DNA of 64,000 nt, from NCBI RefSeq assembly GCF_044704955.1, contig NC_091991.1, forward strand, positions 175,708,001-175,772,000, given 5' to 3'. How positions within the stretch are numbered: position 1 is the first letter of the stretch; every line of letters starts with the position of its first letter. Below are positions 1,955-45,228 of the stretch, one piece after another. The notes under the pieces are model-generated. The model had not been told where the DNA came from. It saw only the letters and a program-made list of their open reading frames with translations, and did not search any database. The translations under genes and the position numbers were made by a program. Source of the DNA: Pristiophorus japonicus. Taxonomy: Eukaryota.

Positions 1955-2344
1955 CTAGGGGTCGGTGGACCGGACGATGGTGATGACGCTGGTGGCGGGC
2001 GGGGCAGGGCCCTTGGCCACGGTGCGGGCGTATCTCTGGAGGGCCTCGTACCTGGAGCGCAGGCCCTCCAGCTCGGCCCGCATGTGGGCGTTCTCCCTGG
2101 CCAGCATGGCCACCTCCTGCTGGAGGTCAGTCCGCTGCCGCTGCAGCTCCTCCTTCTGCGAGACCCGCTTGACCCGGCAGCTGGCCGCGTAGCCCCGGTT
2201 CTTCAGTGTCCGCCGCCGTTGCTTCAGCTGGACGATCTCCTCCTTGGTCAGGCCCCGCAGGTGCTGGTTCAGCTCTCGCACTGCCATGGACACCAGCTGC
2301 TGGTCGCTGAGCGGGGGGGCAGTATCGCTGGCCTCCTTCTTAAC
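1955..2344 (-). CDS. MAFK: Small Maf bZIP transcription factor (MAFK-like), last coding exon
   Basis: Minus-strand acceptor ...ttgtggtgacag|GTT AAG AAG GAG. Translation [68 protein letters not shown]...[13 protein letters not shown] contains the Maf extended homology region, the basic region NRGYAASCR and the small-Maf SVITIV tail. Family is near-certain; paralog (K, G or F) is not. Confidence 0.9.
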
Positions 2345-2717
2345 CTGTCACCACAAAATACTTCCAGGTTACTGTCTTTCTGTCCCTCCGCCTCACTGCC
2401 TGCTCTCCCCCCACCTCCTCCCTCCCCAGCTCCCCCTGCCCTGCGCCCCCTCCACCCCCAGTTTTCCATTTAACTCTCAGCACCATACCCTTTAAGAAGC
2501 ACGACAAAGCCGTCCTCTCAATCAGCAGCCCATCCACCTCCCTAAACATCCCCCATCTCCACCACCGGCGCCCCCTGGCGGCAGTGTGCACCATCCACAA
2601 GATGCACCGCAGCAACTGGCCCAAGGCCTCTTCGCCAGCACCTCCCAAACCCGTGATCTCCACCGCCGAGAAGGACAAGGGCAGCAGGCGCCTGGGAACG
2701 CCGTCATAAGAACATAA

Positions 2718-3090
2718 GCCAAAGGTGGGCAGAGGAAACGTCACAGGGACCACCCTCGAAGCCTCCCTGATAAAGTGCAACATCCCCCACCGACACCTGG
2801 GAGTCCCTGGCCAAAGACCAGTCCGCCCTAAGTGGAGGAAGTGCATCCGGGAGGGCGCTGAGCACCTCGAGTCTCGTCGCCGAGAGCGTGCAGAAACCAA
2901 GCGCAGGCAGCGGAAGGAGCGTGCGGCAAACCAGACTCCCCGCCCGCTCTTTCCCTCAACGACTATCTGTCCCACCTGCGACAGGGACTGTGGCTCTCGT
3001 ATTGGGCTGTTCAGCCACCTAAGGTCTCATTTTTAGAGTGGAAGCAAGTCTTCCTCGATTCCGAGGGACTGCCGATGATGATGATGATGA
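2718..3090 (+). mobile_element. RTE-clade LINE 3' end
   Basis: LIKCNIP...CPTCDRDCGSRIGLFSHLRSH zinc-finger-like C-terminus and (GAT)n tail. Confidence 0.8.
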
Positions 3091-3420
3091 AGAACATAAG
3101 AAATAGGAGCAGGAGTCGGCCATTCGGCCCCTCGAGCCTGCTCCGCCATTCAATAAGATCGCGGCTGATCATTGACCTCAACTCCACTTTCCCGCCCGAT
3201 CCCCATATCCCTTGATTCCCCTAGACTCCAAAAATCTATCGATCTCAGCCTTGAATATACTCAGAGACTCATCATCCACAGTCCTCTGGGGCGGAGAATT
3301 ACATAGATTCACAACCCTCTGAGAGAAGAAATTCCTCCTCACCTCAGTCTTAAATGGCCGACCCCTTATCCTGAGACTGTGCCCCCTGGTTCTAGACTCC
3401 CCAGCCAGGGAGAAACAGCC
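3090..3420 (-). mobile_element. CR1 LINE 3' fragment in the Maf intron
   Basis: aagaacataagaaataggagcaggagtcggccattcggcccctcgagcc tail. Confidence 0.85.
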
Positions 3421-3857
3421 TCCACGTTCCCCTCCAAGTCACACACCATCCTGATTTGGGACACGCATAGTCATTGGATGAAAAGCCTGGAACTCCTTCC
3501 CTAACAGCATCTTCAGTTCAAGGTGGCCCAGCACCATTTACTCAAGGGCAACTGGGGATGGACAATAAATGTTGGCCGTGGTGGTGAAAAGGGGCAGTGG
3601 GCCTTCTCCTTGAACCGCTGCAGTCCGTGTGGTGAAGGTGCTCCCACAGTGCTGTTAGGGAGGGAGTTCCAGGATTGTGACCCAGCGACGATGAAGGAAC
3701 GGCCGATATATTTCCAAGTCAGGATGGTGTGTGACTTGGAGGGGAACGTGGAGGTGGTGGTGTTCCCAGGCGCCTGCTGCCCTTGTCCTTCGAGGCGGTG
3801 GAGATCACGGGTTTGGGAGGTGCTGGCGAAGAAGCCTTGGGCGAGTTGCTGCAGTGC

Positions 3858-4290
3858 AACAACAACTTGTATTTATATAGCGCCTTTAACTTAGTAAAAC
3901 GTCCCAAGGTGCTTCACTGAGTGTTAGCAGATAAAAATGTGACACCGAGCCACACAAGGAGAAATTAGGCCAGATGACCAAAAGCTTGGTCAAAGAGGTC
4001 GGTTTTAAGGAGCGTCTTGAAGGAGGAAAGAGAGGTAGAGAGGTGGAGAGGTTTAGGCAGGGAGTTCCAGAGCTTGGGGCCTCGGCAACAGAAGGCACGG
4101 CCACCAATAGTGGAGTGATTATAATCAGGGATGCTAAGGAGGGCAGAATTAGAGGAGCGCAGACATCTCGGGGGGGTTGTGGGGCTGGAGGAGATTACAG
4201 AGATAGGGAGGGGCGAGGTCATGGAGGGATTTGTAAACAAGGATGAGAAGTTTGAAATCGAGGCGTTGTTGGACTGGGAACCTCAGTGGA
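3858..4290 (-). mobile_element. L2-clade LINE 3' fragment
   Basis: GGRAFCCRGPKLWNSLP...SFKTLLKTDLF; tail ggcgctatataaatacaagttgttgttg. Confidence 0.85.
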
Positions 4291-4607
4291 TGGTACACAC
4301 TGCAGCCACGGTGTGCCGGTGATGGTGGGACTGAATGTTATCCTCCCCTCAACAATGAAACAATGCTGGAGGGGGATTGCAGAGATAGGGAGGGGCGAGG
4401 CCACGGAGGGACTTGACGATGAGGTATACACATTGCTGCTTAGCGGAATATTTTAAAAAGGGGAATAAACACGGTGAGAAGTCTAAACGGAAAGGTCAAA
4501 CTTCCCATTTTGCTGCTCCCCTGCGCAGGGTCAGGAGACGGGATAGAACTGCTGAGGTAAACAGTTAAACAGCAGCAAAATGACACAAATAGAAAAGGGA
4601 TCCTCAC

Positions 4608-4643
4608 CTTTATTGCTTTGCTTCCTTTAAGATTGGCCGACAT
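4608..4643 (-). CDS. MAFK: Small Maf gene, first coding exon (MSANLKGSKAIK); exon probably 4608-4683 including 5'UTR
   Basis: GGGTAATG start context, 12 codons resembling the small-Maf N-terminus (...KALK), donor AAG|gtgagg in phase 0 that joins the exon starting at 2344, and upstream acceptor tttcttgtgattgcag at 4684. Confidence 0.88.
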
Positions 4644-12173: not shown

Positions 12174-12390
12174 CTGCAGTTTTTAAAGCAATGCATTTAA
12201 AGCAAAAGACCATTGCAATTGAGTGCAAAATGCTGCTTGCACTGTGCGGGGGTCTGGCCTGTGTGGCAGGGGTCCCCTCTCCCTCCCTTCCAAACATCCC
12301 AAGCACGCGCGACATCCGCGCCCCGGGAGACAGCTGCCATGGCAACCGGAGAGTATTCAATCAAACCCTGGCCGGGGTCGCCATGGAAAC
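12174..12390 (-). promoter_or_regulatory. Tandem RFX X-box promoter with a candidate non-coding exon
   Basis: GCTGCCATGGCAAC (12333-12346) and GTCGCCATGGAAAC (12377-12390) in a CpG-rich patch; strong minus-strand donor CAG|gtgagtaag at 12173. Confidence 0.5.
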
Positions 12391-12424
12391 CGCCATTGTT
12401 GCGGCGTACCCCAGGCATGATTGA

Positions 12425-15400: not shown

Positions 15401-15435
15401 CACTGCGCACACACACACAGGGCACTGAGGGAGCA
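12425..15435. repeat. About 3 kb minisatellite, ~30-bp unit cagggcactgggacagagcactgca(ca)n
   Basis: Visible tandem array with a variable CA spacer; accounts for the long Cys/Val- and His/Thr-rich ORFs. Confidence 0.95.
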
Positions 15436-21562: not shown

Positions 21563-22604
21563 CCCTAGTCTCTCTCTCTCTCTCGTCCCCCCATCCCTCT
21601 CCCCCAGTCCCCCCCTCTCTCCCCCAGTCACCCCCTCTCTCTCCCTGCCCCTCTCCCAGTACCCCCCTCTCTCCCCCAGTTCCCTCTCTCTCCCCCCCCC
21701 AGTCCCCCCTCTCCTGTTCCCCCCCAGTCACCCCCTCTCTCTCCCTGCCCCTCTCCCAGTACCCCCTCTCTCCCCCAATCACCCCCTCTCTCTCCCTGCC
21801 CCTCTCCCAGTACCCCCCTCTCTCCCCCAGTCCCTCTCCCAGTACCCCCCTCTCTACCCCTCTCCCCCCCCAAGTCACCCCCTCTCTCTCCCTGCCCCTC
21901 TCCCAGTACCCCTCTCCCCCCAGTCCCCTCTCTCTCTCCCCCCCACCCCGCCCCCTCTCTCCCCCTGCCCCACCCCGCCCCCAGTTCCCCCTCTCTCCCC
22001 CCCTGCCCTTCTCCCAGTTCCCCTCTCTCCCAGTTCCCCTCTCTCTCTCTCTCTCTCCCAGTCCCCCCTCTCTCTCCCAGTTCCCCTCTCTCTCTCTCTC
22101 CCAGTACCCCCTCTCTCTCTCTTCTCTCTCCCAGTCCCCCCCTCTCTCTCTTCTCTCCCCCCCTCTCTCTCTTCTCTCCCCCCTCTCTCTCTTCTCTCCC
22201 CCCTCTCTCTCTCCCCCCTCTCCCTGTTCCCCTAGTCCTCCCCCCCCCTCTCTCTCCCCCTCTCCTTCTCTCCCAGGCCCCCCCCCTCTCCCTCTCCCCT
22301 CTCCCCTCTCTCTCTCATTCCCCCCCTCTCTCTCTCTCTCTGCCCCTGCCCCTCTCCCAGTTCCCCTCTCTGCCCCTCTCCTAGTCCCCCCCTGCCCCTC
22401 TCCCAGTCCCCCCTCTCTCTCCCTGNNNNNNNNNNNNNNNNNNNNNNNNNNNNNNNNNNNNNNNNNNNNNNNNNNNNNNNNNNNNNNNNNNNNNNNNNNN
22501 NNNNNNNNNNNNNNNNNNNNNNNNNNNNNNNNNNNNNNNNNNNNNNNNNNNNNNNNNNNNTTCCCCCCCCCCCGTCTCCCAGTGCCCCCTCTCTCACCCT
22601 GCCC
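21343..22604. repeat. Polypyrimidine (CT-rich) low-complexity tract containing an assembly gap
   Basis: Almost pure C/T on the plus strand with recurring ctctcccagt motifs; N-run at 22426-22560. Confidence 0.95.
22426..22560. other. Assembly gap (135 N)
   Basis: Run of n characters. Confidence 1.
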
Positions 22605-22860
22605 ATGACCGATGGGGCGGCTCCTGTGCCGCGCACTCTGCAACAACTCGGGCAACAATTAAAGAAACAAGCATCACCCCCCCGGAGGCGCGCACCTACC
22701 TGGCGGGCCGAGGGCCGGGGGCGCGCGGTGCGCGCTCACTCACCGAGCCCGGTTCCGGGAGCGCGGAGCTCACCTGCTGTTTGCCCACGTGACTTCATTC
22801 ATGAAAATTCCGCCGACGTCACTGGGACCTTGAAGATGGCGGGAAAAGCAGAATAATCCC
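22600..22860 (-). promoter_or_regulatory. CpG-rich promoter / non-coding first exon, probably of the small Maf gene
   Basis: High CpG density; minus-strand donors CAG|gtaggt (22699), CG|gtgagt (22743) and CAG|gtgagc (~22773); CACGTGAC E-box (~22786), GACGTCA CRE-like (~22815) and AAGATGGCG YY1 motif (~22833). Confidence 0.55.
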
Positions 22861-22939
22861 CAAAACATGAATGGGACAAAATCCTCGGGCTACACTGCAC
22901 AGGATCCACCGTGTGTAATGTCCCGCATATACACTGTAT

Positions 22940-28012: not shown

Positions 28013-28759
28013 GTAACACTTTTACAAGCACTCTGGTAGCTCTCCCCAAGTGGCCAGGCTGGCTATTTGACCAGGGGGTGCAGTCACACCCAACGTTTCC
28101 CTCACCCGACACCCGTGTACAACCAGCAGGGGGGCCTTTGTACTGAGATCAGGGCAGGCTGACTATTCCTCTCCCTAGCCCAGAGGATGGGGGGCTGATA
28201 GCGGTGCCTATGCCACCGCTCCCCACTCCCCCCACCCCAGCAAAGGACAAGTAACTCAATACTAGACTGGGTGTTGAATCTGGGATCCCCCGGGGCATTT
28301 TTTTCGATGTTAAAAGGTGCCAAATTGATGCAAGTTGGCAGACGGGTCGGTAACCAGAGGACACAGATTGAAGATAATTGTCAAGAATTTATATTTTACG
28401 TTATGATCTGGACCGCATTGCCTGAAAGGGCAAATGGAAACAGATTCAATAGTAACTTTCAATTGGATAAATACTTGAAGGGGAGAAAGTTGCAGGGCTA
28501 AGGGGAAAAAGCAGGGGGTGTGGGACTAATTGGATCGCTCTCTCACAGAGCCGGCACGGGCTCGATGGGCCGAATGGCCCCCTCCTGCGCTGTAAGATTC
28601 TATGATGTCGACCTCACTGTCCCCAATCTGTAAGGGCTCAATATTCACTGGACAATGTTTTGAACCAACTATCATCACAAGACACCTTTACAGTGCAAAA
28701 TTCATGTCCTTGACAGTCTGGGTATTAATTAGTCTTTTGCCCCGAGCTGGTTGAACATT

Positions 28760-28875
28760 CTTATTGGAGATGCCTTCTGGATTGGCTCATGATGCAACTT
28801 CCTCCTGCTGATGTAACTTCCTGCCGTGAGCTGCCCTGTTTGCAGCATTTCAGAGCAGGATGAGGAACCAATGAC
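28760..28875. promoter_or_regulatory. Candidate stress-response enhancer (two CARE/AARE-ETS units plus CCAAT boxes)
   Basis: TGATGCAACTTCCT (28790) and TGATGTAACTTCCT (28809); ATTGG at 28763 and 28781; CCAAT at 28868; non-repeat DNA. Confidence 0.35.
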
Positions 28876-29368
28876 CGTGAGGCAGAGTGTTCATTCATGA
28901 GATTTGTGACCATTTAGTCTCCCAAGTCTCTCAGCGGAGTGCTAAAGGGAGGAGCTCTGGAAGATTCTGCCCCAGAATCCTTTCATGGAGATGACTGTTG
29001 TGGAGCGAGTCTCTCTTTCCTTTTCACACCACACTCTAGGAAAGGATAGACAGCTACATTTCGGCTTCGGTCCTCGAGAGGGACTATCCAACAGTGACCA
29101 CACCCCAAAAGTACTTCATTGGCTGTAAAGCACTTTGAGAGTCCACTGGTCGTGAAAGGCGCTATGTGAATGTAAGTCTTTCTTTCTAGTTTCCCATCCT
29201 ATGGATGAGGCATTAAACCGTGCCTACCTATGTTGGCGGATGTTAAAACCTGTCGGGAGGAACATAGGGGGCAGGATTGGGCCTTTCAGCCCCTTCCGCC
29301 ATTCAGTTAGATTGTGGCTGATCTGTATCGTAACTCTGTCTACCTGCCCTGGTTCCAGAACTCCAATA

Positions 29369-29739
29369 CAGGTGCAGCGTTGAGAATCCGGAATCCTCGG
29401 GACCGAGGCCGATCCGGATTCCGGGCTTTTCCGGACTTTCGATCGTCTTTCTGACACCACGAATGCGGAAACACCCAAGCCCAGTTTTGGGTATTTCCGG
29501 ATTTCGGAACGTCAGAAAGGGGGTGGGGGTGGGAGGGGGAAGGAGGGGAGACACCCCGCCGAGGTGCTGTTTGGGCCGTCCAGGGCCCGATGAGGTCGTC
29601 GGGCGGGGTCCCGTCGCGGAGGAGGTGTTCGGTCGGGCCGGCGAGGAGGCTCCGAGGTTGGGCAGCGGTGGGGCCCCGAGGATTCCGGATGACCCTGCCA
29701 CCGATCGGTCCGCATTCCGGATTTTCCACGCTGCACCTG
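29369..29739. mobile_element. Tc1/mariner-type (Tigger/pogo-like) MITE, 371 bp
   Basis: TA|CAGGTGCAGCGTtgagAATCCGGAAT ... ATTCCGGATTttccACGCTGCACCTG|TA: terminal inverted repeats with TA target duplication. Removing it rejoins a CR1-like fragment (ctccaaTA-cccttgcctaacaaa). Confidence 0.88.
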
Positions 29740-29809
29740 TACCCTTGCCTAACAAAGAGGTCTGACGTATGCCAGTCCTCCTTTAGCAGATTTACCAAAT
29801 TCCACACAC

Positions 29810-30680
29810 TGTGGCTCGGTGGGTAGCACTCTCGCCTCCGAGTCCGAAAGTTGCAGGTTCAAGTCCCACTCCAGGGACTTAAACCCAAAATCCAGGCTGA
29901 CTCTCCCAGTGCAGTGCTGAGGGAGTGCTGCACTGTTGGAGGTGCTGTCTTTCGGATGAGACATTAAACTCGGATGAGCAGGCTGCGTCTGCTCTCTCGG
30001 GTGGATGTAAAAGGTCCCATGGCACTATTTCGAAGAAGCGCAGGGGAATTGTTCCCGATGTCCTGGCCAAAATTTATCCCTCAATCAACATCACTACAAC
30101 AGATTATCTGGTCATTATCACATTGCTGTTTGTGGGAGCTTGCTGTGTGCAAATTGGCTGCCGCGTTTGCCACATTACAACAGCAGCGACTACACTCCAA
30201 AAGTACATCAATAAATAACTGCAAGCAGATCCAATGTTTAAAAAAAATTTAAATTCCAATTAAGATTCAGTTTCATGGCAATACTTAAAAAAATTAGGAA
30301 GCAAGGTTTTACACATGTTCCAATGTATTTCCATTTATAAAATGACTTGCATTTCTATAGCGCCTTTCATCACCACCACCTACGCTTCAAAGCACTTTAC
30401 AGCCAGTGAAGTACTTTTTGCAGTGTAGTCACTGTTGTAACGTGGGAATGGAGCAAACAATATTGCGCACAGCAAGCTCCCACTAACAGCAATGTGACAA
30501 TGAGCAGATAATTTTTTTTTATGATGTTGGTTGAGGGATAAATATTGGCCGGGACAGCAAGGAGAACTCCACTAGTCTTCTTCAAATGATGGGATCTTTT
30601 ACGTCCAATTGAGGGCAGATGGGACCTTGATTTAGCGTCTTATCCAAAAGACGGCACCTCTGACAGTGCAGCACTCCTTC
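29810..30680. mobile_element. Tail-to-tail pair of DeuSINE copies (+ 29810-30210, - 30345-30680)
   Basis: Same family motifs in opposite orientations. Confidence 0.75.
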
Positions 30681-31500
30681 AGTACTGCACCTCCGACAGT
30701 GTAGCACTCCCTCAGGACTGTGCGCTCCTCCCTCAGTACTGCCCCTCCGACAGTGTAGCACTCCGTCAGTACTGCCCCTCCGACAGTGTAGCACTCCCTC
30801 AGGACTGCCCCTCCGACAGTGCGGTGCTCCCTCAGTACTGCCCCTCCGACAGTGGCGGCACCTCAGTACCGCGCCTCTGACTGTGCGGTCCTCCCTCAGT
30901 ACTGCTCCTCCGACAGTGCAGCACTCCCTCAGTGCAGTCCTCCCTCAGTACTGCCCCTCCGACAGTGCGGTCCTCCCTCAGTACTGCTCCTCCGACAGTG
31001 CGGTCCTCCCTCAGCACTGCCCCTCCGACAGTGTGGCAATCCTCAGTACTGCTCCTCCGACAGTGCAGTACTCCCTCAGTGCAGTCCTCCCTCAGCATTG
31101 CCCCTCCGACAGTCGGCAATCCTCAGTACTGCCCCTCCAACAGTGCAGTCCTCCCTCAGTACTGCCCCTCCGACAGTGTGGCAATCCTCAGTACTGCCCC
31201 TCCGACAGTGCAGTCCTCCCTCAGCATTGCCCCTCCGACAGTCGGCAATCCTCAGCACTGCCCCTCCGACAGTGCGGCAATCCTCAGTACTGCCCCTCCG
31301 ACAGTGCAGTCCTCCCTCAGTACTGCCCCTCCGACAGTGCAGTCCTCCCTCAGTACTGCCCCTCCGACAGTGCAGTCCTCCCTCAGTACTGCCCCTCCGA
31401 CAGTGCAGTCCTCCCTCAGTACTGCCCCTCCGACAGTGCAGTCCTCCCTCAGTACTGCCCCTCCGACAGTGCAGTGCGGCGTGCCCTCAGTACTGCACTT
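30655..31500. repeat. ~33-bp minisatellite (cagtactgcccctccgacagtgcagtcctccct)n derived from a SINE segment
   Basis: Tandem copies continue directly out of the minus-strand SINE at ~30345-30680; the unit matches the SINE segment cacctccgacagtgcagcactccctcagcactgc. Confidence 0.9.
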
Positions 31501-32589
31501 CGGGAGATCCTGAGGCCGTGAAAGGATCTGCACAAATGCAAGTGCGTTGTTTGTATCCAGTTGTTGGATCGAGGCTCTGTGCGATAGGCTGCCGGGCTTG
31601 TGTCACAACACCATTGAGATTTTCCAACTCGCAAGTCAACCCTCCAGTCCCACCATGTTGTCTTCTTGCAGCCACCGCAAAGCGCAGGCAGTTCCACTCC
31701 ATGACACATTGGTGGGAGTGGCCTGCTAAGCATGGAAAGATCCCATGTGAACTGTGAACTGTGCAGGGAAACCACCCCCCCCCCGGGAGACGTGAACGTT
31801 TAACCGCTGCCACCCATTGGTCTAATGTAACAGTGTCTCTGCCGGCTGGCTGTTGCTCGGCTGGTTAGTGAGCATTCACACAATGACAAGCAGGGCAGAC
31901 ACACACAATGGAGAATGGTCAGAGAATGTGCCTCCCAGTGACAATGACTTACATCCATGGTGCTGACCACCTGTGGGCCTTGAATATTTAAGACTCTCTT
32001 TCTTTATAAATTATACATCCATTCCTCAGTAAGGAAGTTCCATTCACTCAGTAAAGGTGAGGTTCCCTGTTGAAAAGGTAATTGTTAAAAAAATACCAAC
32101 AATTTCACCCCCCCCCCCGCCCCAATAGCTTAATGGGGCAATGGTAGAGAGCAGGACAGCCCCAGGGTTGACCCTCTGTCTGTGCTGTGCTCGGGGCACA
32201 AGAGCTGCCATGGTAGACCTCAGTGCCTCGGGGAGCAGTCTGGGTTCCCAGTCCTGGTGGGGCGGGGGGTGAAGGGGAGGGGGTACAGGGGAGGGTGGGT
32301 GAAGGCAGGGGGAGGGTGAGGGCGAAGACTGGGTAGGGCGGGGAGGGTGAGGGGGTACGGGGAGGATGGGTGAAGACGGGGGGAGAGCGAGGCGAGGAGG
32401 GGGGGCGAGGTAGGGAGGGGCAGGTGAAGCAGGGAGTGGGGGAGGGTGCTGAGCGCTGGGAGAACCGTACCCCGACAAGGTGCTGAAGCATGAACAGCAA
32501 GTCGTGCTATTAAGGAGAAAAGACATTCTGGGGCCCGAAATTGCCCTCCGCCCCAAACGGGGGGCACTTGCCGTTTTTTTTGTTTTTTC

Positions 32590-32638
32590 TCTCTGCCCCA
32601 ATCCATGGGGCGGGGAGTAGAGCGATGTTCAGCTGTGT

Positions 32639-32685
<47 letters not shown>

Positions 32686-33531
32686 GGTGTGGTGTTCAGG
32701 GCGGGCGAGCCATTGGGTCGGGTCGGCCGTCACTCCGCGTCATCAGCCCCACACTGACACATCACAACATGTCCCCTCTCCCCCCGCCCAACAGCAGGGG
32801 GTGCCGTGCGGCCGGTCGGTAAGGGGTCGGCGCGCGCCCCACGGGCCGGGAAGACGGCGGGGGTTGGTGGGGGGGTGGGGGGGGGGGGGGGCGGTCCCGT
32901 GTACCATCCAAAAATAAAGGAGGGCCATTTCGGAAATGTCGGCCCCTTCGCACCGACCGAGCGGTTGCGACTCTTTAAAAAAACGGTCAATTTTGGCCCC
33001 ATTGAGTGGAGGGTGGGTGCTGGGTCTGAGCGAATCACGGTCAATGGTTCAAGGTTCAATGGTTCACAGGTCAGGTGTCGCAGACTCAACACAGAGCACT
33101 GACGCCACCAGCCCCGCGTGGACCAGGGAACATTTACGGCTTTTGTTTTTAAATCGGTTGTATGTGCATCAATCAGCAGCGAAGCTCATATTCACACAGC
33201 ACAGTCTTGATGCAAGAGCACTTAAACATTTCTTTTATTTGGTTTAAATCCATAGATTTCCCTCCTGATTTCCTGACGATTCGGGCTCCGTTACCACAAC
33301 TGTGCCAGCAGCTGGGAAGGAGCCGAGGAAGATTTGTGTGTGTGTGTGGGGGCACCTTTCAAACAAGAGAGGGGCGAGTGAGGAGGAGAGGGGCGAGCGG
33401 GGGAGGGGGGCGGAGGGCGAGCGACGAGGGGGCGGAGGGCGAGGGAGGAGGGGGCGGAGGGCGAGGGAGGGGGCGAGCGAGGAGAGGGCGGAGGGAGACG
33501 CTCGGTACTCTTGCTTGGCGTACTGCCTGCG
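32590..33531 (+). promoter_or_regulatory. GC/CpG-rich promoter and 5' region of METTL4
   Basis: CCAAT and GGGGCGGGG boxes (~32598-32615), GGGCGG and ATTGG (~32700-32717), possible 5'UTR donor CG|gtaagg at 32819, and a G-rich purine tract 33367-33500 just before the ATG. Confidence 0.45.
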
Positions 33532-35247
33532 ATGGCGGTGGTCAGGAGTGACTCTGTGGGGTGGTGGTTGGATCACCTGTCCTACATTAACCAGGCGTAC
33601 AGGTGCTGCCACCACGGCCCCCGCCCCCGCCGTTACGTGTTCAGGGCCGAATATTTCGACATCGAGCGGCCCCATATTGCCGACTCCGGGACGGCGGGAG
33701 GGGTGGAGCCGGCCGGCGAGGACCCCCAGCCGAAAGGCAGGAAACGCAAGAGGAAGATTCAGGAACCGAACCGGGGAGAGGTGGAGGCACGGGAGTACCA
33801 CGGCCAGGTCAGCCTGGCCATCCGGGACGGCACCAGGAAGCTGGTAGAGCAATGTACCGAGGGGGAGGGGCGCACGGGGGAGGGGCACAATGAGTTGGGG
33901 GAGGGGCACATTGAATCGAGGGAGGGTGAAGGGGAGGGGCGCACGGGGGAGGAGGGACGCACGGAGGCGGGGGAGGGGGAGGGGGAGGGACGCGCGGCGG
34001 AGGGGGAGGGGGAGGGTGAGGGACGCATGGGGGAGGGACGCTCGGAGGCGGGGGAGGGGGAGGGACGAGAGGGGGAGGGACGGGAGGGGGAGGGGCGCAC
34101 GGGGGAGGGGCACAATGAGTTGGGGGAGGGGCACATTGAATCGAGGGAGGGTGAAGGGGAGCGGCGCACGGGGGAGGAAGGACGCACGGAGGCGGGGGAG
34201 GGGGAGGGGGAGGGACGCGCGGCGGAGGGACGCTCGGACACGGGGGAGAGCCGCACGGAGGCGGGGGAGGGACGCACTGACACGGGAGCGCCGGGTGTAG
34301 GACACGGCACTAAGACAAGGCCGGCCTCGGCGATCGGCAGCTCCATGTTGGCGGAGCTGTGCTCCATGGCGAAGCGGATGGCGGAGGAGCAGCACCGGCC
34401 CGTGCAGGTGATCAGCCTCGAGGCAGGCACGGCGACCGGACTTGACCTGCTGGCCCGCCTGACCCAGAACGCCACGGACTGCGCCCGCATCGTGACGCTG
34501 ATGGGGCACCGCTACCTGCTGCCGCCCCGCTGCACCTTCCTCCTGTCCGACATCTCCGGCCTGGGGGCCCTGGTGGGCCGCGGGAAGTATGACGTGATCA
34601 CCTTGGACCCGCCCTGGGAGAACAAGTCGGTGAAGAGGAGCGGCGGCTACAGCCACCTCTTCCCCTGGCAGATCCGGCAGATCCCGGTGCCGAGCCTCGC
34701 CGCCCCGGGCTGCCTGGTGGCGAGCTGGGTCACCAACCGGCAAAGGCACCGGCGCTTCGTGCGGGAGGAGCTGTACCCGGGCTGGTCGGTGCAGGTGGTG
34801 GCCGAGTGGCACTGGGTGAAGGTCACCCGGCACGGAGAGTTCGTGGTGCCCCTGGACTCCGCTCACAAGAAGCCCTACGAGATCCTGGTGCTGGGCCGGT
34901 ACAAAGGGAGCCCGGAATGGGCAGAGGGGGAACCAGTCACCGCAACGCTCCCGGTGCCCGACCGCAAGCTGATGGTCAGCGTGCCCTGCGCCCTGCACTC
35001 TCACAAACCACCACTGGGCGAGGTGCTGAAGGGGCTGACCGGGCCTCACCCACAGTGCCTGGAGCTGTTTGCCCGCAACCTGCAGCCTGGGTGGACCAGC
35101 TGGGGCAACGAGGTGCTCAAATTCCAGCACCTGGACTATTTCCAGGAGCTCGACCCAGAGGAAGGAGACGGCAACTGCTCACAGACACAAGAAACAGGAG
35201 CAGGAGGCGACCATTCGGCCCCTCGAGCCTGCTCCGCCATTCGATAG
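33532..35247 (+). CDS. METTL4: METTL4, MT-A70 family N6-adenine methyltransferase; single coding exon, 571 aa
   Basis: Uninterrupted ORF. N-terminus MAVVRSDSVGWWLDHLSYIN, basic RKRKRK stretch, YLLPPRCTFLLSD, catalytic ITLDPPWENKSVKRS (DPPW at 34606-34617), WHWVKVT, HKKPYE, HSHKPP and CLELFARNLQPGWTSWGNEVLKFQH are all METTL4 hallmarks. ATG is in gcgATGg context. Confidence 0.95.
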   Translation: MAVVRSDSVGWWLDHLSYINQAYRCCHHGPRPRRYVFRAEYFDIERPHIADSGTAGGVEPAGEDPQPKGRKRKRKIQEPNRGEVEAREYHGQVSLAIRDGTRKLVEQCTEGEGRTGEGHNELGEGHIESREGEGEGRTGEEGRTEAGEGEGEGRAAEGEGEGEGRMGEGRSEAGEGEGREGEGREGEGRTGEGHNELGEGHIESREGEGERRTGEEGRTEAGEGEGEGRAAEGRSDTGESRTEAGEGRTDTGAPGVGHGTKTRPASAIGSSMLAELCSMAKRMAEEQHRPVQVISLEAGTATGLDLLARLTQNATDCARIVTLMGHRYLLPPRCTFLLSDISGLGALVGRGKYDVITLDPPWENKSVKRSGGYSHLFPWQIRQIPVPSLAAPGCLVASWVTNRQRHRRFVREELYPGWSVQVVAEWHWVKVTRHGEFVVPLDSAHKKPYEILVLGRYKGSPEWAEGEPVTATLPVPDRKLMVSVPCALHSHKPPLGEVLKGLTGPHPQCLELFARNLQPGWTSWGNEVLKFQHLDYFQELDPEEGDGNCSQTQETGAGGDHSAPRACSAIR

Positions 35248-35372
35248 GATCACGGCTGATCTTCTACCTCAACTCCACTATCCTGCACTGTCCCCCATAT
35301 CTCTTCATATCCAAAAATCTATCGGTCTCCGCCTTGAATATACTCAAAGACCAAGCCTCCACAGCTCTCTGG
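35185..35372 (-). mobile_element. CR1 3'UTR fragment overlapping the METTL4 C-terminus and stop codon
   Basis: acacaagaaacaggagcaggaggcgaccattcggcccctcgagcctgctccgccattcgataggatcacggctgatc aligns by eye with the CR1 tails at 3093, 51790 and 57870. Confidence 0.9.
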
Positions 35373-35539
35373 ACATGATCCAATCGTTCCGTTAGTCAAC
35401 TGGACCCGTGCGGCCATCGTGGGTGTTCCAAAAGGACTTTTCCAAATATGGCAGTTCACACTTTGAGGGGAAAAAAAAGTAATTTTTCCCATTTACAGCT
35501 GGAAGGCCAATTGATTATTGTGCATTGAGAAAAGAAATT

Positions 35540-35550
35540 AATAAAATAAA
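35540..35550 (+). terminator. Overlapping AATAAA polyadenylation signals of METTL4
   Basis: aataaaataaa about 295 nt after the stop codon, followed by a T/GT-rich downstream element (ctgtgtgtttcttcc). Confidence 0.65.
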
Positions 35551-35639
35551 CTTTTTTAACCTGTGTGTTTCTTCCTCTCTTCCAGAGCATTGCAGGGAGG
35601 GAGATTCGTTAGAATTTTAACTTGCGCCAAAAGGATAGA

Positions 35640-36112
35640 AAGACTTATTTATATAGCGCCTTTCACAACTTCAGAACGTCCCAAAGCGCTTCACAGCCAA
35701 TGAAGCACTTCTTGGAGTGTAGTCACTGTTGTAATGTGGGAAACGCAGCAGCCAATTTGCGCCCAGCAAGCTCCCACAAACAGCCATGTGATAATGACCC
35801 AGATAATCTGTGTTTTTTTTTTAAGTGATGTTGGTTAAGGGATAAATATTGGCCGAGGACACTGGGGATAATTCCTCTGTTCTTCGAAATAGTGCCAAGG
35901 GATCTTTTACATCCACTTGAGAGGGCAAACGGGGCCTCGGTTTAACGTCTCATCTGAAATACGGCACCTCTGACAGTGCAGCGATCCCTCAGCACTGCAC
36001 TGGGAGTGCCAGCCTAGATTTATGTGCTCAAGTCTCTGGAGTGGGATTTGAACCCACAACCTTCTGACCCCGAGATGAGAGAGAGTGCTACCCACTGAGC
36101 TACAGCGGACAC
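35640..36112 (-). mobile_element. Near full-length DeuSINE copy
   Basis: Same family, just past the METTL4 polyA signal. Confidence 0.8.
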
Positions 36113-38879: not shown

Positions 38880-39167
<288 letters not shown>

Positions 39168-39264
39168 TCACAGTTCTACCGGTTACCGAGAGACTCTCGG
39201 GCTTTCGTCTCCTCGGAAGTAGATACCAACACATGGTGCCACACCAAACCCAAATGGCCCTGGG

Positions 39265-40912
39265 CCCTTGAGACAATCACTATCACTAGGGAGGTAGTGC
39301 TGGACAGGCTAATGGGACTCAAGGTAGACAAGTCCCCTGGTCCTGATTAAATGCATCCCAGGGTATTAAAAGAGATGGCGGAAGTTATAGCAGATGCATT
39401 CGTTATAATCTACCAAAATTCTCTGGACTCTGGGGAGGTACCAGCGGATTGGAAAGCAGCTAATGTAACGCCTCTGTTTAAAAAAGGGGGCAGACAAAAG
39501 GCAGGTAACTATAGGCCAGTTAGTTTAACATCTGTAGTGGGAAAATGCTTGAAGCTATCATTAAGGAAGAAATAGCGGGACATCTAGATAGGAATAGTGC
39601 AATCAAGCAGACGCAGCATGGATTCATGAAGGGGAAATCATGTTTAACTAATTTACTAGAATTCTTTGAGAGTATAACGAGCATGGTGGATAGAGGTGTA
39701 CCGATGGATGTGGTGTATTTAGATTTCCAAAAGGCATTCGATAAGGTGCCACACAAAAGGTTACTGCAGAAGATAGAGGTACGCGGAGTCAGAGGAAATG
39801 TATTAGCATGGATAGAGAATTGGCTGGTGACCAGAAAGCAGAGAGTCGGGATAAATGGGTCCTTTTCGGGTTGGAAATCGGTAGTTAGTGGTGTGCCACA
39901 GGGATCGGTGCTGGGACCACAACTGTTTACAATATACATCGATGACCTGGAAGAGGGGACAGAGTGTAGTGTAACAAAATTTGCAGATGACACAAAGATT
40001 AGTGGGAAAGCAGGTTGTGTAGAGGACACAGAGAGGCTGCAAAGAGATTTAGATAGGTTAAGCGAATGGGCTAAGGTTTGGCAGATGGAATACAATGTCA
40101 GAAAGTGTGAGGTCATCCACCTTGGGAAACAAAACAGTAAAAGGGAATATTATTTGAATGGGGAGAAATTACAACATGCTGAGGTGCAGAGGGACCTGGG
40201 GGTCCTAGTGCATGAATCCCAAAAAGTTAGTTTGCAGGTGCAGCAAGTAGTCAGGAAGGCGAATGGAATGTTGGCCTTCATTGCGAGAGGGATGGAGTAC
40301 AAAAGCAGGGAGGTCCTGCTGCAACTGTATAGGGTATTGGTGAGGCTGCACCTGGAGTACTGCGTGCAGTTTTGGTCACCTTACTTAAGGAAGGATATAC
40401 TGGCTTTGGAGGGGGTACAGAGACGATTCACTAGGCTGATTCCGGAGATGAGGGGGTTACCTTATGATGATAGATTGAGTAGACTGGGTCTTTACTCGTT
40501 GGAGTTCAGAAGGATGAGGGGTGATCTTATAAAAACATTTATAATAATGAAAGGGATAGACAAGATCGAGGTGGAGAGGTTGTTTCCACTGGCCGAGGAG
40601 ACTAGAACTAGGGGGCACAGCCTCAAAATACGGGGGAGCCAATTTAAAACAGAGTTGAGAAGGAATTTCTTCTCCCAGAGGGTTGTGAATCTGTGGAATT
40701 CTCTGCCCAAGGAAGCAGTTGAGGCTAGCTCATTGAATGTATTCAAGTCACAGATAGATAGATTTTTAACCAATAAGGAAATTAAGGGTTACGGGGAGCT
40801 GGCGGGTAAGTGGAGCTGAGTCCACGGCCAGATCAGCCATGACCTTGTTGACTGGCGGAGCAGGCTCGAGGGGCTAGATGGCCTACTCCTGTTCCTAATT
40901 CTTATGTTCTTA
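39265..40912 (+). mobile_element. Young 5'-truncated CR1 LINE; RT domain and C-terminal ORF 39545-40819 open
   Basis: QHGFMKGKSCLTNL, YLDFQKAFDKVPH, GVPQGSVLGP, KFADDTK, LEYCVQFWSP and RNFFSQRVVNLWNSLP motifs; 3' tail ttcttatgttctt; stop at ~39348 and a frameshift near 39540 upstream. Confidence 0.95.
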
Positions 40913-42861
40913 TTATGTTCTTACACACTCACGAGCTGTGCCCAAGTCCATGGAATTTACAGCACAGAAACAGGCCCTACTGGCCGGTGTTTGTGCTCCA
41001 CACGACCCTCCTCCCACCCTACGTCATCTCACCCCATCAGCATCCCCTCTTATTCCTTTATCACTCATGTGCTCATCAAGGTTGAATGTATCTATACTAT
41101 TCACCTCAACCACTCCCTGTGGCAGCGAGTTCCACATTCTCACCACTCTCTGGGTAAAGAAGTTTCTCCTGAATTCCCTGTTGGATTTATTAGTGACTGT
41201 CTTAGATTTATGAGCCCCCTAGTTTTGGATCCCCTCCACGTGTGGAAACATCTTCTCGAATTTGCCAGTCCCAGTGGGGGGTGGGAGGGGAGAGAAGAAA
41301 GCAGGCAGTTGCATATCTGTGCTCATAATGGTGTGTGGGGTTATAGGAGTCAGGGGCGCAGGGGTGTGAAAGGGAACAGTCAGACTCTCAACTTCCCAAT
41401 TCTTGTACACCAATCTCGGAGAAGTGCCAGTACACTAGCTGGGGGGGGGGGGGCGCTAGGGTCAGCCGCAGAATCAGCTGAGGGTGCACTGCACTAGTGA
41501 GCAGCTTGCCTGCACTAATAAATCCAATCGGGAATTCAGGAGAAATGTCTTCACCCAGAGAGTGGTGAGAATGTGGAACTCCCTACCACAGGGAGTGGTT
41601 GAGGCGAATAGAATGGATGCATTTAAGGGGAAGCTGGATAAACACACGAGGGAGAGAGGAATAGAAGATTATGCTGATGGGGTGAGATGAAGTGTGGGGC
41701 ATGAACCAGTTGAGCAGAATGTTTCGATGCTGTACATTCTATGTATCACTCACTGTTGGAGCTCATGCTTAAAGAATGGTCGATCAGCAGAGGTAACAGA
41801 GGCTCCTGTCTCGCAGGGAGTTGTTGCCTTCAGGTTAGGAGGACGACAATTGGAGAATACAAAAGTGTATTCTTCAGCACAGTGATGCCCGTGCTTTGTT
41901 TGTTTATGACCAGAATTTGCTCAGTAGTTGCATGCTCACAAGCTCTCTAAACCTTGTAGTTATCACACATCGACAGTGTGAAGATCATCGGCCTGAATCA
42001 TTACACCCACGGCCAGCAAACTCGTGCCATGGAGGGAATCAGAGGGAGGAGAGTTCGATCGGCCGGGAACTTGATTCTCAAGTCGTTCATGTTCTCGGAA
42101 GTGAAACAGTTCAAGACTCCCACTTCCAAAAATAGAGAGAACAAACGCGGAACGTCAACACAGGCTCGGCAGGCCAGGCTTTCTCCGGCGGGGCCACCGC
42201 GGGGCGCTACGGGTGGCGAGCAAACCGAAGTTTGCCTCCGTGTCGCTAACGGAGACGTTGCACACCGGCACTATGCTCCCGGGCTATACTCCTCAGTGCC
42301 GCCGGTAACTGCACACTGTCGACACTCGCTGGCACTAACCCTTTAGCGCCCCTGTAGCCCTCCTTGCGAGGTGGGGGAGGGAACGAAACGCTATCCAACT
42401 GAATGTTCCGCCCACAGACGTGCTAGAGAGCATGCTTCCTCGGGCACCTCTAGTATTTTGGCTACTTGCTCCAATTCTCCGAGAGCGAGACTGGGCCGTG
42501 AAAGTTGGCGGCATGTGGACAAACATCAGCTGATCAGGGAGGAACCATGGTGGACATCAAAGCCAAGCTCAATACCGTTCTCGCCTGCCATTCATTCTTT
42601 TTTTCCCTCTCTTTCTCAAAAAGAAAGACGCACAAATCAGACGTGGCTGATTTTCCCCCCGCACCGGCTCGGAGGAACAATCAGGCCAATGATAGCAGGC
42701 AAGTGCTGCCCCAAATTGGAATCAGTTAACTAAATCTTGTGCCTTGAACTGAACCAGGTAACCCTCTGCTCTGATTTCCTCATTTAGTCACCAAGGAGCC
42801 AAACGGGTATCGTTGGCACTGTGCGTTCCTTCAGCCAGCTGCTGGAGCTGGGAGCAGTGGG

Positions 42862-43565
<704 letters not shown>

Positions 43566-43784
43566 TCAATCCACCGTCAGCAGGTACAACAACCCATGTG
43601 CCACATCAACAAGATGAAAACATTCCTTGAACTCCCCAAGTTTATTTAGAAACGGAACTTAAATATAGCGCCTCATCACATCTCTCAAACATCTCAAAGT
43701 GCTTCAGAACAGGTTATTTTGAACATTATACCGGCCAATAGCAGCCATTTTGTGCACAGCAATATCCCACAAACAGCAGCCATT

Positions 43785-44325
43785 TACCCAAGGAAGGATA
43801 TATTTGCCGAGAGGGAGTGCAACAAAGGTTCACCAGACTGATTCCTGGGATGGAGGGTGGCGGGGGTGGTGTGGGAGGGGGAGGGGGCGGTTGCCCTATG
43901 AGTAGACTAGGCCTATATTCTCTGGAGTTTAGAAGAATGAGGTGTGATCTCATTGAAACATATAAAATTCTTACAGGGTTTGACAGGTAGATGCAGGGAG
44001 GATGTTTCCCCTGGCTGGGGAGTCTAGAACCAGCGGTCACAGTCTCAGAATAAGGGGTTGGCCATTTAGGACTGAGCTGAGGAGAAACTTCTTCACTCAG
44101 AAGGTGGTGAATCTCATGAATTCTCTACCCCAAAGGGCTGTGGAGACTCAGTTCTTAAGTATATTCAAGACAGAGATCGATAGATTTTTGGGTATTAAGG
44201 GATTCGAGGGATATGGGGACAGTGCAGGAAAGTGGAGTTGAGGTAGAAGATCAGCCATGATCTCATTGAATGGCGGAGCAGGCTCGAGGGGCCGAATGGC
44301 CTATTCCTGCTCCTAGCTCTTATGT
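43785..44325 (+). mobile_element. CR1 LINE 3' fragment
   Basis: MFPLAGESRTSGHSLRIRG...RNFFTQKVVNL; CR1 tail. Confidence 0.88.
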
Positions 44326-45018
44326 TTTTATTTTGTGCACAGCAATCCCTCACAAACAGCAGAAATGAATGACCAATTAATCTGCATTTGGCTGAGGGAA
44401 CGCTGACCAGGACACAGAGAAATGCCCTGTTCTTCGAATAATGCCAATGGGATCTTTAATAGCCCTCTTGATAAGATTATCTTCTGTGGAACCTTATCAA
44501 ATGCCTTCCAGAAATCCACATAGACAACATAGCCTATCCACCATATTTGTAACCTCCTCAAATAATCATCTAGATTAGTCAGACATGATCACCGTTCCAT
44601 GGTGACTCTCTGATCAGCTGACATTTGTCCACGAGCACGGTCATTATGCCTCCAATTATAGATTTCAGTAACTTCCCAACAATTGATGTTAAACTGAGAG
44701 GTCTATAGTTACCTGGTTTCTGCCTTCTTTTCTCCCTTCTTAAATAATAGAGTGGTATTTGCAATTTTCCAATCCTGAATTTAGAGAACTTTAGAACATT
44801 ATGACATCTGCAATTTTCTGACTTAATTCTTTTTTTTTTTTAAAATACCCTGGGTTGAAAACCACCAGGTCCTGGAGATTTGTCCATCTTAAGTCCTATT
44901 ATTCTCTCCATTACTATTATTCTTTTTAATAAATCCACCAAGTTCCTCCCCTTCACTCACATTTAGGTTCCCTTGTTGCCCTTCTTTGCTCAACAGAGTC
45001 ATTGAGTTAATACAGTTA

Positions 45019-45228
<210 letters not shown>

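What the first reader, a model, noticed from the sequence alone, without database searches (positions are those of the whole stretch)
33532..35247. Intact METTL4 with no coding introns at a non-canonical locus: a candidate functional retrogene
Seen: the whole METTL4 coding sequence, from the N-terminal GWWLDHLSYIN to the DPPW catalytic domain, is one 1716-nt ORF with no stop or frameshift. It has a GC-rich promoter-like region upstream and AATAAA signals downstream, while neighbouring TMEM184 has multi-kb TE-filled introns. Known: mammalian METTL4 (U2 snRNA m6Am methyltransferase, also reported to act on DNA) is multi-exon and lies next to NDC80, not next to Maf or TMEM184. Inference: a retroposed copy that stayed functional, either replacing the parent gene or acting as a second N6-adenine methyltransferase in this lineage.
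Basis: partly seen in the sequence, partly recalled or inferred. Interest (0 to 1): 0.8.

Follow-up and report, generated by a model that had tools for sequence, protein, structure and literature searches.

The report
Old parentless METTL4 retrogene in sharks
This shark's only detectable gene for the snRNA methyltransferase METTL4 has lost the introns of its coding region and sits at a new chromosomal site, so it looks like an old processed copy that replaced its parent, a known kind of event that changes the gene's address rather than its job.

Summary
The 1716-nt ORF is real and encodes METTL4 with its catalytic residues intact. Five junction positions inferred from bony-vertebrate isoforms are read straight through; hagfish and mouse genes have about nine exons, so the intronless state is derived. 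It is the only METTL4 found in the genome; the same search found multi-exon METTL3 and METTL14. It is therefore a replacement, not a second enzyme. The site differs from both the hagfish and the bony-vertebrate site. The skate gene lies on the matching chromosome, so the move probably predates the shark-skate split (about 286 Ma). Best reading: orphan retrogene methylating U2 snRNA A30 (0.78). Exon structure in other sharks is only indirectly shown. The scan had not noted this gene on other DNA.

The parts
33532..35247 (+). METTL4 ORF, 571 aa, one uninterrupted frame
33849..34250 (+). Recent 402-nt purine-rich tandem expansion (134 aa: 42 Glu, 42 Gly, 17 Arg) in the linker after the long N-terminal helix; absent from the named record P0002, which fits a GC-AG intron call
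   Evidence: disordered in model
34588..35112 (+). MT-A70 methyltransferase domain (aa 353-527)
34606..34617 (+). DPPW catalytic motif (aa 359-362)
35185..35372 (-). 3' end of a high-copy LINE, inserted antisense; supplies aa 552-571 and the stop codon
35374..35391 (+). Codons resembling the C-terminal tail of other sharks, stranded behind the LINE
   Evidence: compared with P0004, P0007, P0129, P0010
35540..35550 (+). Two overlapping AATAAA signals followed by T/GT-rich sequence
33256..33531 (+). 5'UTR part of the coding exon, starting at a pyrimidine-rich AG acceptor
28877..33255 (+). 5'UTR intron, 4379 nt, GT-AG
   Evidence: removed exactly in the processed copy at G000:C3:33.611 Mb
28756..28876 (+). 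Upstream non-coding exon (its 5' end is not known)
32696..33000 (+).
   Evidence: GC 0.67, CpG o/e 0.88; function inferred only
22600..22930 (.). Candidate bidirectional CpG promoter between Maf and METTL4: minus-strand splice donors facing Maf; E-box, CRE and YY1-like words (motif names recalled)
   Evidence: link to METTL4 inferred, not shown
1955..4643 (-). Small Maf gene, coding span (two exons); MAFK by synteny, name recalled
38880..45210 (-). 3' coding exons of TMEM184 (184A-like, name recalled), convergent with METTL4

Best explanation
An orphan retrogene. A spliced METTL4 mRNA was reverse-transcribed and inserted beside the small Maf / TMEM184 block before sharks and skates diverged. 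It is transcribed through non-coding 5' exons, possibly from the CpG promoter it shares head-to-head with Maf. The multi-exon parent was then lost, and the copy does the parent's job: SAM-dependent N6-methylation of the 2'-O-methylated A30 of U2 snRNA, through D359, Y373 and K492. Later, in this lineage only, a hexamer-phase repeat lengthened a flexible linker by 134 residues (probably translated) and a LINE replaced the last codons. Shown: no coding introns, single copy, multi-exon outgroups, new site, a spliced germline transcript, constraint, intact active site. Inferred: insertion by retroposition rather than conversion in place, the age, the promoter, and the enzyme activity.
For: Introns are ancestral: hagfish METTL4 spans 28 kb with value 9 in the exon/intron column (PMC10972751 supplement); mouse has nine exons (PMC12799839); 14 of 16 bony-vertebrate isoform pairs break at five positions (window aa ~70, ~350, ~408, ~466, ~496), three shared by ray-finned fish and tetrapods, all read through here. 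Single copy; one search also found 3 METTL3 and 3 METTL14 exons (identified). New site: METTL4 neighbours PACAP/YES1 in pufferfish, frog, chicken and human (PMC2880984); here ADCYAP1 and SMCHD1 are on C1 and METTL4 on C15; hagfish has it elsewhere again. Age: skate METTL4 is on a 39,284,920-bp contig, which is Leri_20C, carrying Gaa-1, Ints1, Uncx and Elfn1; skate Smchd1/Emilin2 are on Leri_4C (PMC10115646 supplement); a GAA-like exon lies 25 kb left of the window. 0 of 20 chondrichthyan species carry a protein-isoform label, and 10 of 20 have two or more transcripts coding one identical protein. Function: end branch 0.12 inside a 99/100 chondrichthyan clade; 7 of 129 conserved versus 22 of 151 other columns changed, p 0.017; 4 of 4 coding differences in other samples synonymous, P about 0.014; spliced retrocopy of its 5'UTR on C3; U2 has CAAGUG at A30.
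Against: No poly(A) remnant marks the insertion (only an A8 run), and target-site duplications were not looked for. No relic of the parent was found, so its site is unknown; only 160 kb of the 3.8-Mb ADCYAP1-SMCHD1 interval was scanned locally. METTL4 also sits at different sites in hagfish and bony vertebrates, so relocation alone does not need an RNA step. A surviving 5'UTR intron is also what conversion in place would leave. No other shark's DNA could be read: exon structure elsewhere rests on annotation labels, and the skate position is known to chromosome only. The protein shows more changes at conserved columns (7 of 129) than four of five other elasmobranchs tested (0-5), and a GC-driven composition shift.
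Confidence: 0.78

Rival explanations
1. Intron loss in place. The multi-exon gene first moved as DNA to the Maf/TMEM184 block (or was already there in the jawed-vertebrate ancestor), and recombination with its own cDNA then erased all coding introns while sparing the 5' intron and promoter. No parent was ever lost.
For: A 5'UTR intron survives. No parent relic. The gene has moved at DNA level before: hagfish and bony-vertebrate sites differ, both multi-exon. Maf is inverted relative to TMEM184 compared with the paralogous C19 pair, so the site has been rearranged. 5' bias of retained introns is recalled knowledge.
Against: Needs two events (move, then conversion of at least five introns) where retroposition needs one plus loss. 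New 5' exons are common in retrogenes (PMC4772013 passages), and PMC3548309 calls retroposition the most parsimonious route when all introns vanish (passage).
Confidence: 0.14
2. A second, additional METTL4: a retrocopy that coexists with a multi-exon parent missing from the assembly or from the searches.
For: The genome search scores only the best candidates and one search used a stricter first look. The assembly has 4318 contigs and may be incomplete.
Against: Four further queries gave one locus, while multi-exon METTL3 and METTL14 were found, the latter on a 98-kb contig. No second, more bony-vertebrate-like METTL4 appears for any listed chondrichthyan species among the best 120 hits of either protein search.
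Confidence: 0.04
3. A young processed pseudogene whose frame has not yet decayed.
For: The repeat expansion and the LINE in the tail show tolerance of insertions.
Against: Only copy in the genome; orthologues intact in 20 chondrichthyan species; constraint test p 0.017 and 4 of 4 synonymous differences; spliced transcript retroposed in the germline.
Confidence: 0.02
4. About the insertion only: the 402-nt repeat is spliced out as a newly gained GC-AG intron, giving the 437-aa protein of the public record. The alternative, which I favour at about 0.7, is that it is translated as a disordered acidic linker; about 0.1 remains for an allele or assembly difference in its length.
For: P0002 equals this ORF minus aa 108-241, with a junction that fits GC...AG ends at 33849 and 34250. 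Removal restores the usual linker length (34 aa; others 24-47).
Against: The acceptor has 30% pyrimidines against 65% at the real UTR acceptor, and no AG inside the repeat scores better than 35%. The donor is far from the recalled GC-AG consensus. All 13 of 13 listed repeat spacings are multiples of three and the frame stays open, although a hexamer base unit gives that on its own.
Confidence: 0.2

Closest known systems
Vertebrate METTL4 (MT-A70 family; U2 snRNA m6Am writer; PMC7498333, PMC9512776)
   Same: Domain order, DPPW motif, substrate-binding residues, single copy, U2 target site present.
   Different: No coding introns, another chromosome, 134-aa acidic linker insertion, LINE-derived C-terminus.
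Orphan retrogenes (25 in human, PMC3548309; 10 mammalian families such as RNF113, PMC4772013)
   Same: Intronless coding region, parent absent, outgroups multi-exon, purifying selection, gained 5' exons, CpG-rich promoter nearby.
   Different: Described from mammalian and other bony-vertebrate genomes; METTL words do not occur in the main text of PMC3548309. Here the case is chondrichthyan and the parent's last site is unknown.
Retrogenes that borrow a neighbour's bidirectional promoter (HTR7P1/HEBP1 type, PMC4772013)
   Same: Head-to-head with a neighbouring gene across a CpG-rich segment.
   Different: The coding exon is about 10 kb from the candidate promoter and would reach it through 5' exons; the link is inferred.

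Membership tests
METTL4 (MT-A70 family) | MT-A70 domain above the curated cut-off | tested here: met
   123.1 bits against 23.9
METTL4 (MT-A70 family) | Orthology to METTL4 rather than METTL3/METTL14 | tested here: met
   Named best hits are METTL4; 151.7 bits to 7cv6 against at most 26 to METTL3 chains; tree
METTL4 (MT-A70 family) | Catalytic and Am-binding residues of Arabidopsis METTL4 (D233, P234, Y247, R278, H321, K322, F361, S362, K364) | tested here: met
   Counted by hand on the alignment with residues: D359, P360, Y373, R403, K447, H489 (Phe or His allowed), S490, K492. H321 is K446, invariant in all 18 vertebrate rows.
METTL4 (MT-A70 family) | Methylates U2 snRNA Am30 (or DNA adenine) | not testable with these tools
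   Substrate site present; activity inferred from orthology
Orphan retrogene | Ancestral coding introns absent | tested here: met
Orphan retrogene | Parent absent from the same genome | tested here: met
   searches score best candidates only
Orphan retrogene | Site differs from the multi-exon orthologue's site in outgroups | tested here: met
   the two outgroups also differ from each other
Orphan retrogene | Poly(A) remnant and target-site duplication | tested here: inconclusive
   Only an A8 run 3' of the stop; duplications not searched; such marks are not expected to last this long
Orphan retrogene | Transcribed | tested here: met
   Spliced processed copy on C3 shows past germline transcription; contigs of X5 and X7 align only from the acceptor onward, run type not on record
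Orphan retrogene | Purifying selection (dN/dS) | tested here: inconclusive
   No orthologous DNA for dN/dS; two proxies favour constraint
Orphan retrogene | New rather than inherited promoter and 5' exons | not testable with these tools
   Needs alignment to other genomes and start-site data

The most novel reading that the evidence does not exclude
All cartilaginous fishes run on a parentless METTL4 retrogene older than 286 million years, wired to the small Maf promoter, and in this sawshark lineage the gene is now re-gaining an intron by turning a fresh coding repeat expansion into a GC-AG intron, while a LINE has rewritten its C-terminus. That would be intron loss and intron birth caught in one gene, and the gene encodes a modifier of the spliceosome's own U2 RNA.
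Probability: 0.15. Interest if true: 0.65.

Novelty: new member of a known kind. Interest (0 to 1): 0.42.

Why it matters
Orphan retrogenes are well described in mammals but little catalogued in cartilaginous fishes, which have few retrocopies (non-mammalian lineages have lower counts; VGP preprint passage). A shared, parentless METTL4 would be a rare genomic change usable as a marker for the shark-ray or shark-chimaera split. It would also be a natural test of whether METTL4 needs its protein isoforms or its ancestral promoter. The 134-residue insertion tests how much the linker tolerates, and it flags a probable annotation error or a nascent intron. It does not point to new enzyme chemistry.

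Tried and rejected
No RNA holder listed for the stretch; this is no evidence on expression. In one search no contig joined across the repeat and X5-X7 left the repeat and 32700-33194 without cover; gaps in cover prove nothing, so splicing of the repeat stays open. Two listed differences at 35243 and 35247 were dropped before the synonymous count because they come from repeat contigs. The weak hit at C1:268.15 Mb (E 0.2, 4 stops) is noise: 1.5 bits with a METTL4 profile. The C209 and C23 MT-A70 hits are METTL14 and METTL3 (names recalled from the translations). No relic near NDC80 (C18:53.76-53.90 Mb), upstream of SMCHD1 or between the paralogous C19 TMEM184 and Maf. A CpG-rich stretch 82 kb upstream of SMCHD1 looks like a repeat element, not a promoter. 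No further protein-coding gene between Maf and METTL4: of 128 frames, only the Maf control passed a curated cut-off. No Rfam match in the window. The metagenome scan gave no relative. The SMC hinge search did not reveal SMCHD1. The structure model is low-confidence (mean pLDDT 42.7) and was used only to place the insertion. Searches with DNA at 22600-22930 and 31880-32110 found no processed copies, so those segments could not be tied to the transcript. Supplements of PMC8302630 and PMC10927551 gave no hit; PMC9965800 gave no exon count.

Full report
Observation. The ORF at 33532-35247 (+) is open for 571 codons. It carries an MT-A70 domain at aa 353-527 (E 1.5e-35), and its best solved relative is 7cv6 (E 2e-43). 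The named best hits among 831 proteins at E <= 1e-30 are METTL4 (best 120 listed). The top hit, P0002, named Pristiophorus japonicus METTL4, is identical except that it lacks aa 108-241. The window lies at G000:C15:175.71-175.77 Mb of a 5.92-Gb genome. A small Maf gene (minus strand, 1955-4643) and the 3' exons of TMEM184 (minus strand, last coding exon 38880-39124) flank it, and a reverse-transcriptase ORF sits in a TMEM184 intron. AATAAA is at 35540.

The introns were there first. Hagfish METTL4 spans chr11:38.766-38.795 Mb with the value 9 in a column headed n_introns; single-block genes read 1 there, so it behaves as an exon count (PMC10972751, supplement rows). Mouse Mettl4 has nine exons (PMC12799839, passage). 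To place junctions I compared 16 pairs of bony-vertebrate isoforms: 14 of 16 break at five positions, equal to window aa ~70, ~350, ~408, ~466 and ~496; the other two differ only at the N-terminus. Positions 70, 466 and 496 occur in both ray-finned fishes and tetrapods. The window reads through all five.

One copy only. Searches of the genome with the gene's own C-terminal half (1 match among 14 candidates), its N-terminal part (1 real match and 2 at E about 0.9 among 19), sturgeon METTL4 (stricter first look; this locus plus one E 0.2 hit) and gar METTL4 (1 of 17) gave this locus alone. The MT-A70 family search gave 7 matches among 12 candidates: this locus, three METTL3 exons and three METTL14 exons (names recalled from the translations), so multi-exon relatives are detectable. 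A profile of 20 vertebrate METTL4 proteins found no relic in 160 kb at SMCHD1, 140 kb at NDC80, or 80 kb at the paralogous C19 TMEM184-Maf pair. These searches score best candidates only, and most of the 3.8-Mb ADCYAP1-SMCHD1 interval was not scanned locally.

The site is new, but NDC80 is the wrong landmark. METTL4 neighbours PACAP and YES1 in pufferfish, frog, chicken and human (PMC2880984, passages). Here ADCYAP1 is at C1:442.29 Mb and SMCHD1 at C1:446.1 Mb, NDC80 at C18:53.77 Mb, METTL4 on C15. NDC80 and SMCHD1 come from different ancestral linkage groups and are on different chromosomes in gar, bamboo shark, lamprey and hagfish, but adjacent in chicken, so that pairing is late. Hagfish METTL4 lies among LRP8, ELOF1 and PARS2, on another chromosome than hagfish MAFK, SMCHD1 or NDC80. 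The shark site thus differs from both outgroups, but the outgroups also differ from each other, which weakens relocation as proof of an RNA step.

Age. Little skate METTL4 is recorded on a contig of 39,284,920 bases. That is the length of Leri_20C, which carries Uncx, Ints1, Gaa-1 and Elfn1; skate Smchd1 and Emilin2 are on Leri_4C near 50 Mb (PMC10115646, supplement rows). A GAA-like exon lies 25 kb left of this window (name recalled). The same paper dates the shark-skate split at about 286 Ma (passage). In the protein collection, 0 of 20 chondrichthyan species carry an isoform label and 10 of 20 have two or more RefSeq transcripts coding one identical protein, the pattern of a single coding exon with variable UTRs (one skate cluster listed 15 of 42 members). 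Among eight non-primate bony vertebrates with RefSeq names, five had protein isoforms; I chose those clusters partly for that reason. A tree of 28 proteins puts the window protein in a chondrichthyan clade (99/100) with an ordinary end branch of 0.12. The chimaera protein is long-branched and GC-biased, and its exon structure is unknown. All of this is indirect: no other shark's DNA could be read.

It is transcribed and spliced upstream. A search with the DNA before the ATG found one other place, G000:C3:33.611 Mb. There, window 28756-28876 (91% identical) is joined directly to 33256-33471 (81%), which removes a 4379-nt GT-AG intron exactly; a LINE 3' part follows. This is a processed fragment of the gene's own mRNA and shows germline transcription. 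In one search, one contig each of runs X5 and X7 (one study, run type not on record) aligns from 33254 onward with 0-1 differences and has 64 and 150 further letters that do not lie on 32700-35640, which fits splicing from another upstream exon. A unique CpG-rich segment at 22600-22930 has minus-strand splice donors facing Maf and E-box, CRE and YY1-like words (motif names recalled). I infer, without proof, a promoter shared head-to-head with Maf. New 5' exons and borrowed bidirectional promoters are documented for retrogenes (PMC4772013, passages).

Function. The residues that bind SAM and Am in Arabidopsis METTL4 (PMC9512776, passages) map to D359, P360, Y373, R403, K447, H489, S490 and K492; H321 is a lysine in all 18 vertebrate rows. 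Human METTL4 needs DPPW to methylate A30 in CAAGUG of U2 (PMC7498333, passages), and this genome's U2 has that site. At columns conserved in 22 bony vertebrates the window protein changed 7 of 129, against 22 of 151 elsewhere (p 0.017). That is constraint, though four of five other elasmobranchs tested changed fewer (0-5) and one more (10). All 4 of 4 coding differences outside the LINE part in X5 and X7 are synonymous, where 34% of transitions would be (P about 0.014; single contigs, one study). Activity is inferred, not shown; nothing here bears on DNA 6mA.

Two recent lineage-specific edits. First, 33849-34250 is a purine-rich expansion holding a 146-nt duplication at 99% identity, 225 nt apart. 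It adds 134 residues to a linker of 24-47 residues in the other 17 rows, disordered in a low-confidence model. The public record omits it in a way that fits a GC-AG intron call, but the acceptor lacks a pyrimidine tract (30% against 65% at the UTR acceptor) and all 13 listed repeat spacings keep frame. I favour translation (about 0.7). Second, an antisense LINE end at 35185-35372 supplies aa 552-571 and the stop; codons resembling other sharks' tails are stranded behind it.

Comparison and novelty. This works like, and is, METTL4. As a gene it meets the testable features of an orphan retrogene (PMC3548309 and PMC4772013, passages), with insertion marks and promoter origin unresolved. I found no description in the held library: METTL4 + retrogene 0 papers; METTL4 + shark 5 (one read in passages, the rest seen as listings and unrelated); METTL4 + intronless 7 (listings); a shark retrocopy search 22 (20 listed); an elasmobranch retroposition search 1; a cartilaginous-fish gene-structure search whose 15 listed papers do not mention METTL4. 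Subscription journals are mostly missing. Supplements I could not see may bear on this: the VGP preprint's retrocopy tables were not opened (bioRxiv supplements are closed), and the skate and hagfish tables were cut when stored.

Verdict. Real, probably an ancient orphan retrogene (0.78), a new member of a known kind, with ordinary predicted chemistry. Interest 0.42.

Noticed in passing
L020 1380-2095 (G000:C3:33.611 Mb): Processed fragment of the METTL4 5'UTR fused to a LINE 3' part; may be a template-switch chimera, a possible route to retrocopies in this genome. The flanks look like LTR-retrotransposon sequence (recalled, not tested).
   Followed up: partly
window 1955-4643 versus 38880-45210: Maf and TMEM184 point the same way here, while the paralogous pair on C19 is convergent: a local inversion with a breakpoint near METTL4.
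   Followed up: partly
window 12330-12395: Two palindromic words resembling RFX X-boxes (motif recalled) just upstream of a minus-strand splice donor at about 12170; possibly an alternative Maf promoter or a non-coding transcript.
   Followed up: no
L062 4758-5453 (minus strand): Trefoil-domain exon of a GAA-like gene 25 kb left of the window.
   Followed up: partly
G000:C18:53.77 Mb (L002, L003): NDC80 is not in the ADCYAP1-SMCHD1 block; published tables show the same in gar and bamboo shark, so the block's NDC80 is a later arrival.
   Followed up: yes
G000:C1003 and C9:111-114 Mb (L073): U2 snRNA genes in a tandem array with about 770-bp spacing on C1003, and about 14-43-kb spacing on C9.
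   Followed up: no
P0020 (chimaera METTL4): Strongly GC-biased composition and a low-complexity insertion at window aa ~348, at a bony-vertebrate junction position; either a repeat in a loop or a trace of a retained intron.
   Followed up: no
P0128 (Rhinoraja): The same METTL4 protein is recorded on two contigs and named METTL4-like: a recent duplication or a haplotype duplicate.
   Followed up: no
G000:C15:162.58 Mb and C34:2.63 Mb: Further TMEM184-family exons beyond the three expected genes.
   Followed up: no
L042 3074-4567 (G000:C1:446.063 Mb): Two long open frames in low-copy sequence about 5 kb upstream of SMCHD1 exon 1, kind unknown.
   Followed up: no
window 12437-15427: A 3-kb minisatellite of about 31-33-nt units giving several long spurious Cys/Val-rich ORFs.
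   Followed up: no
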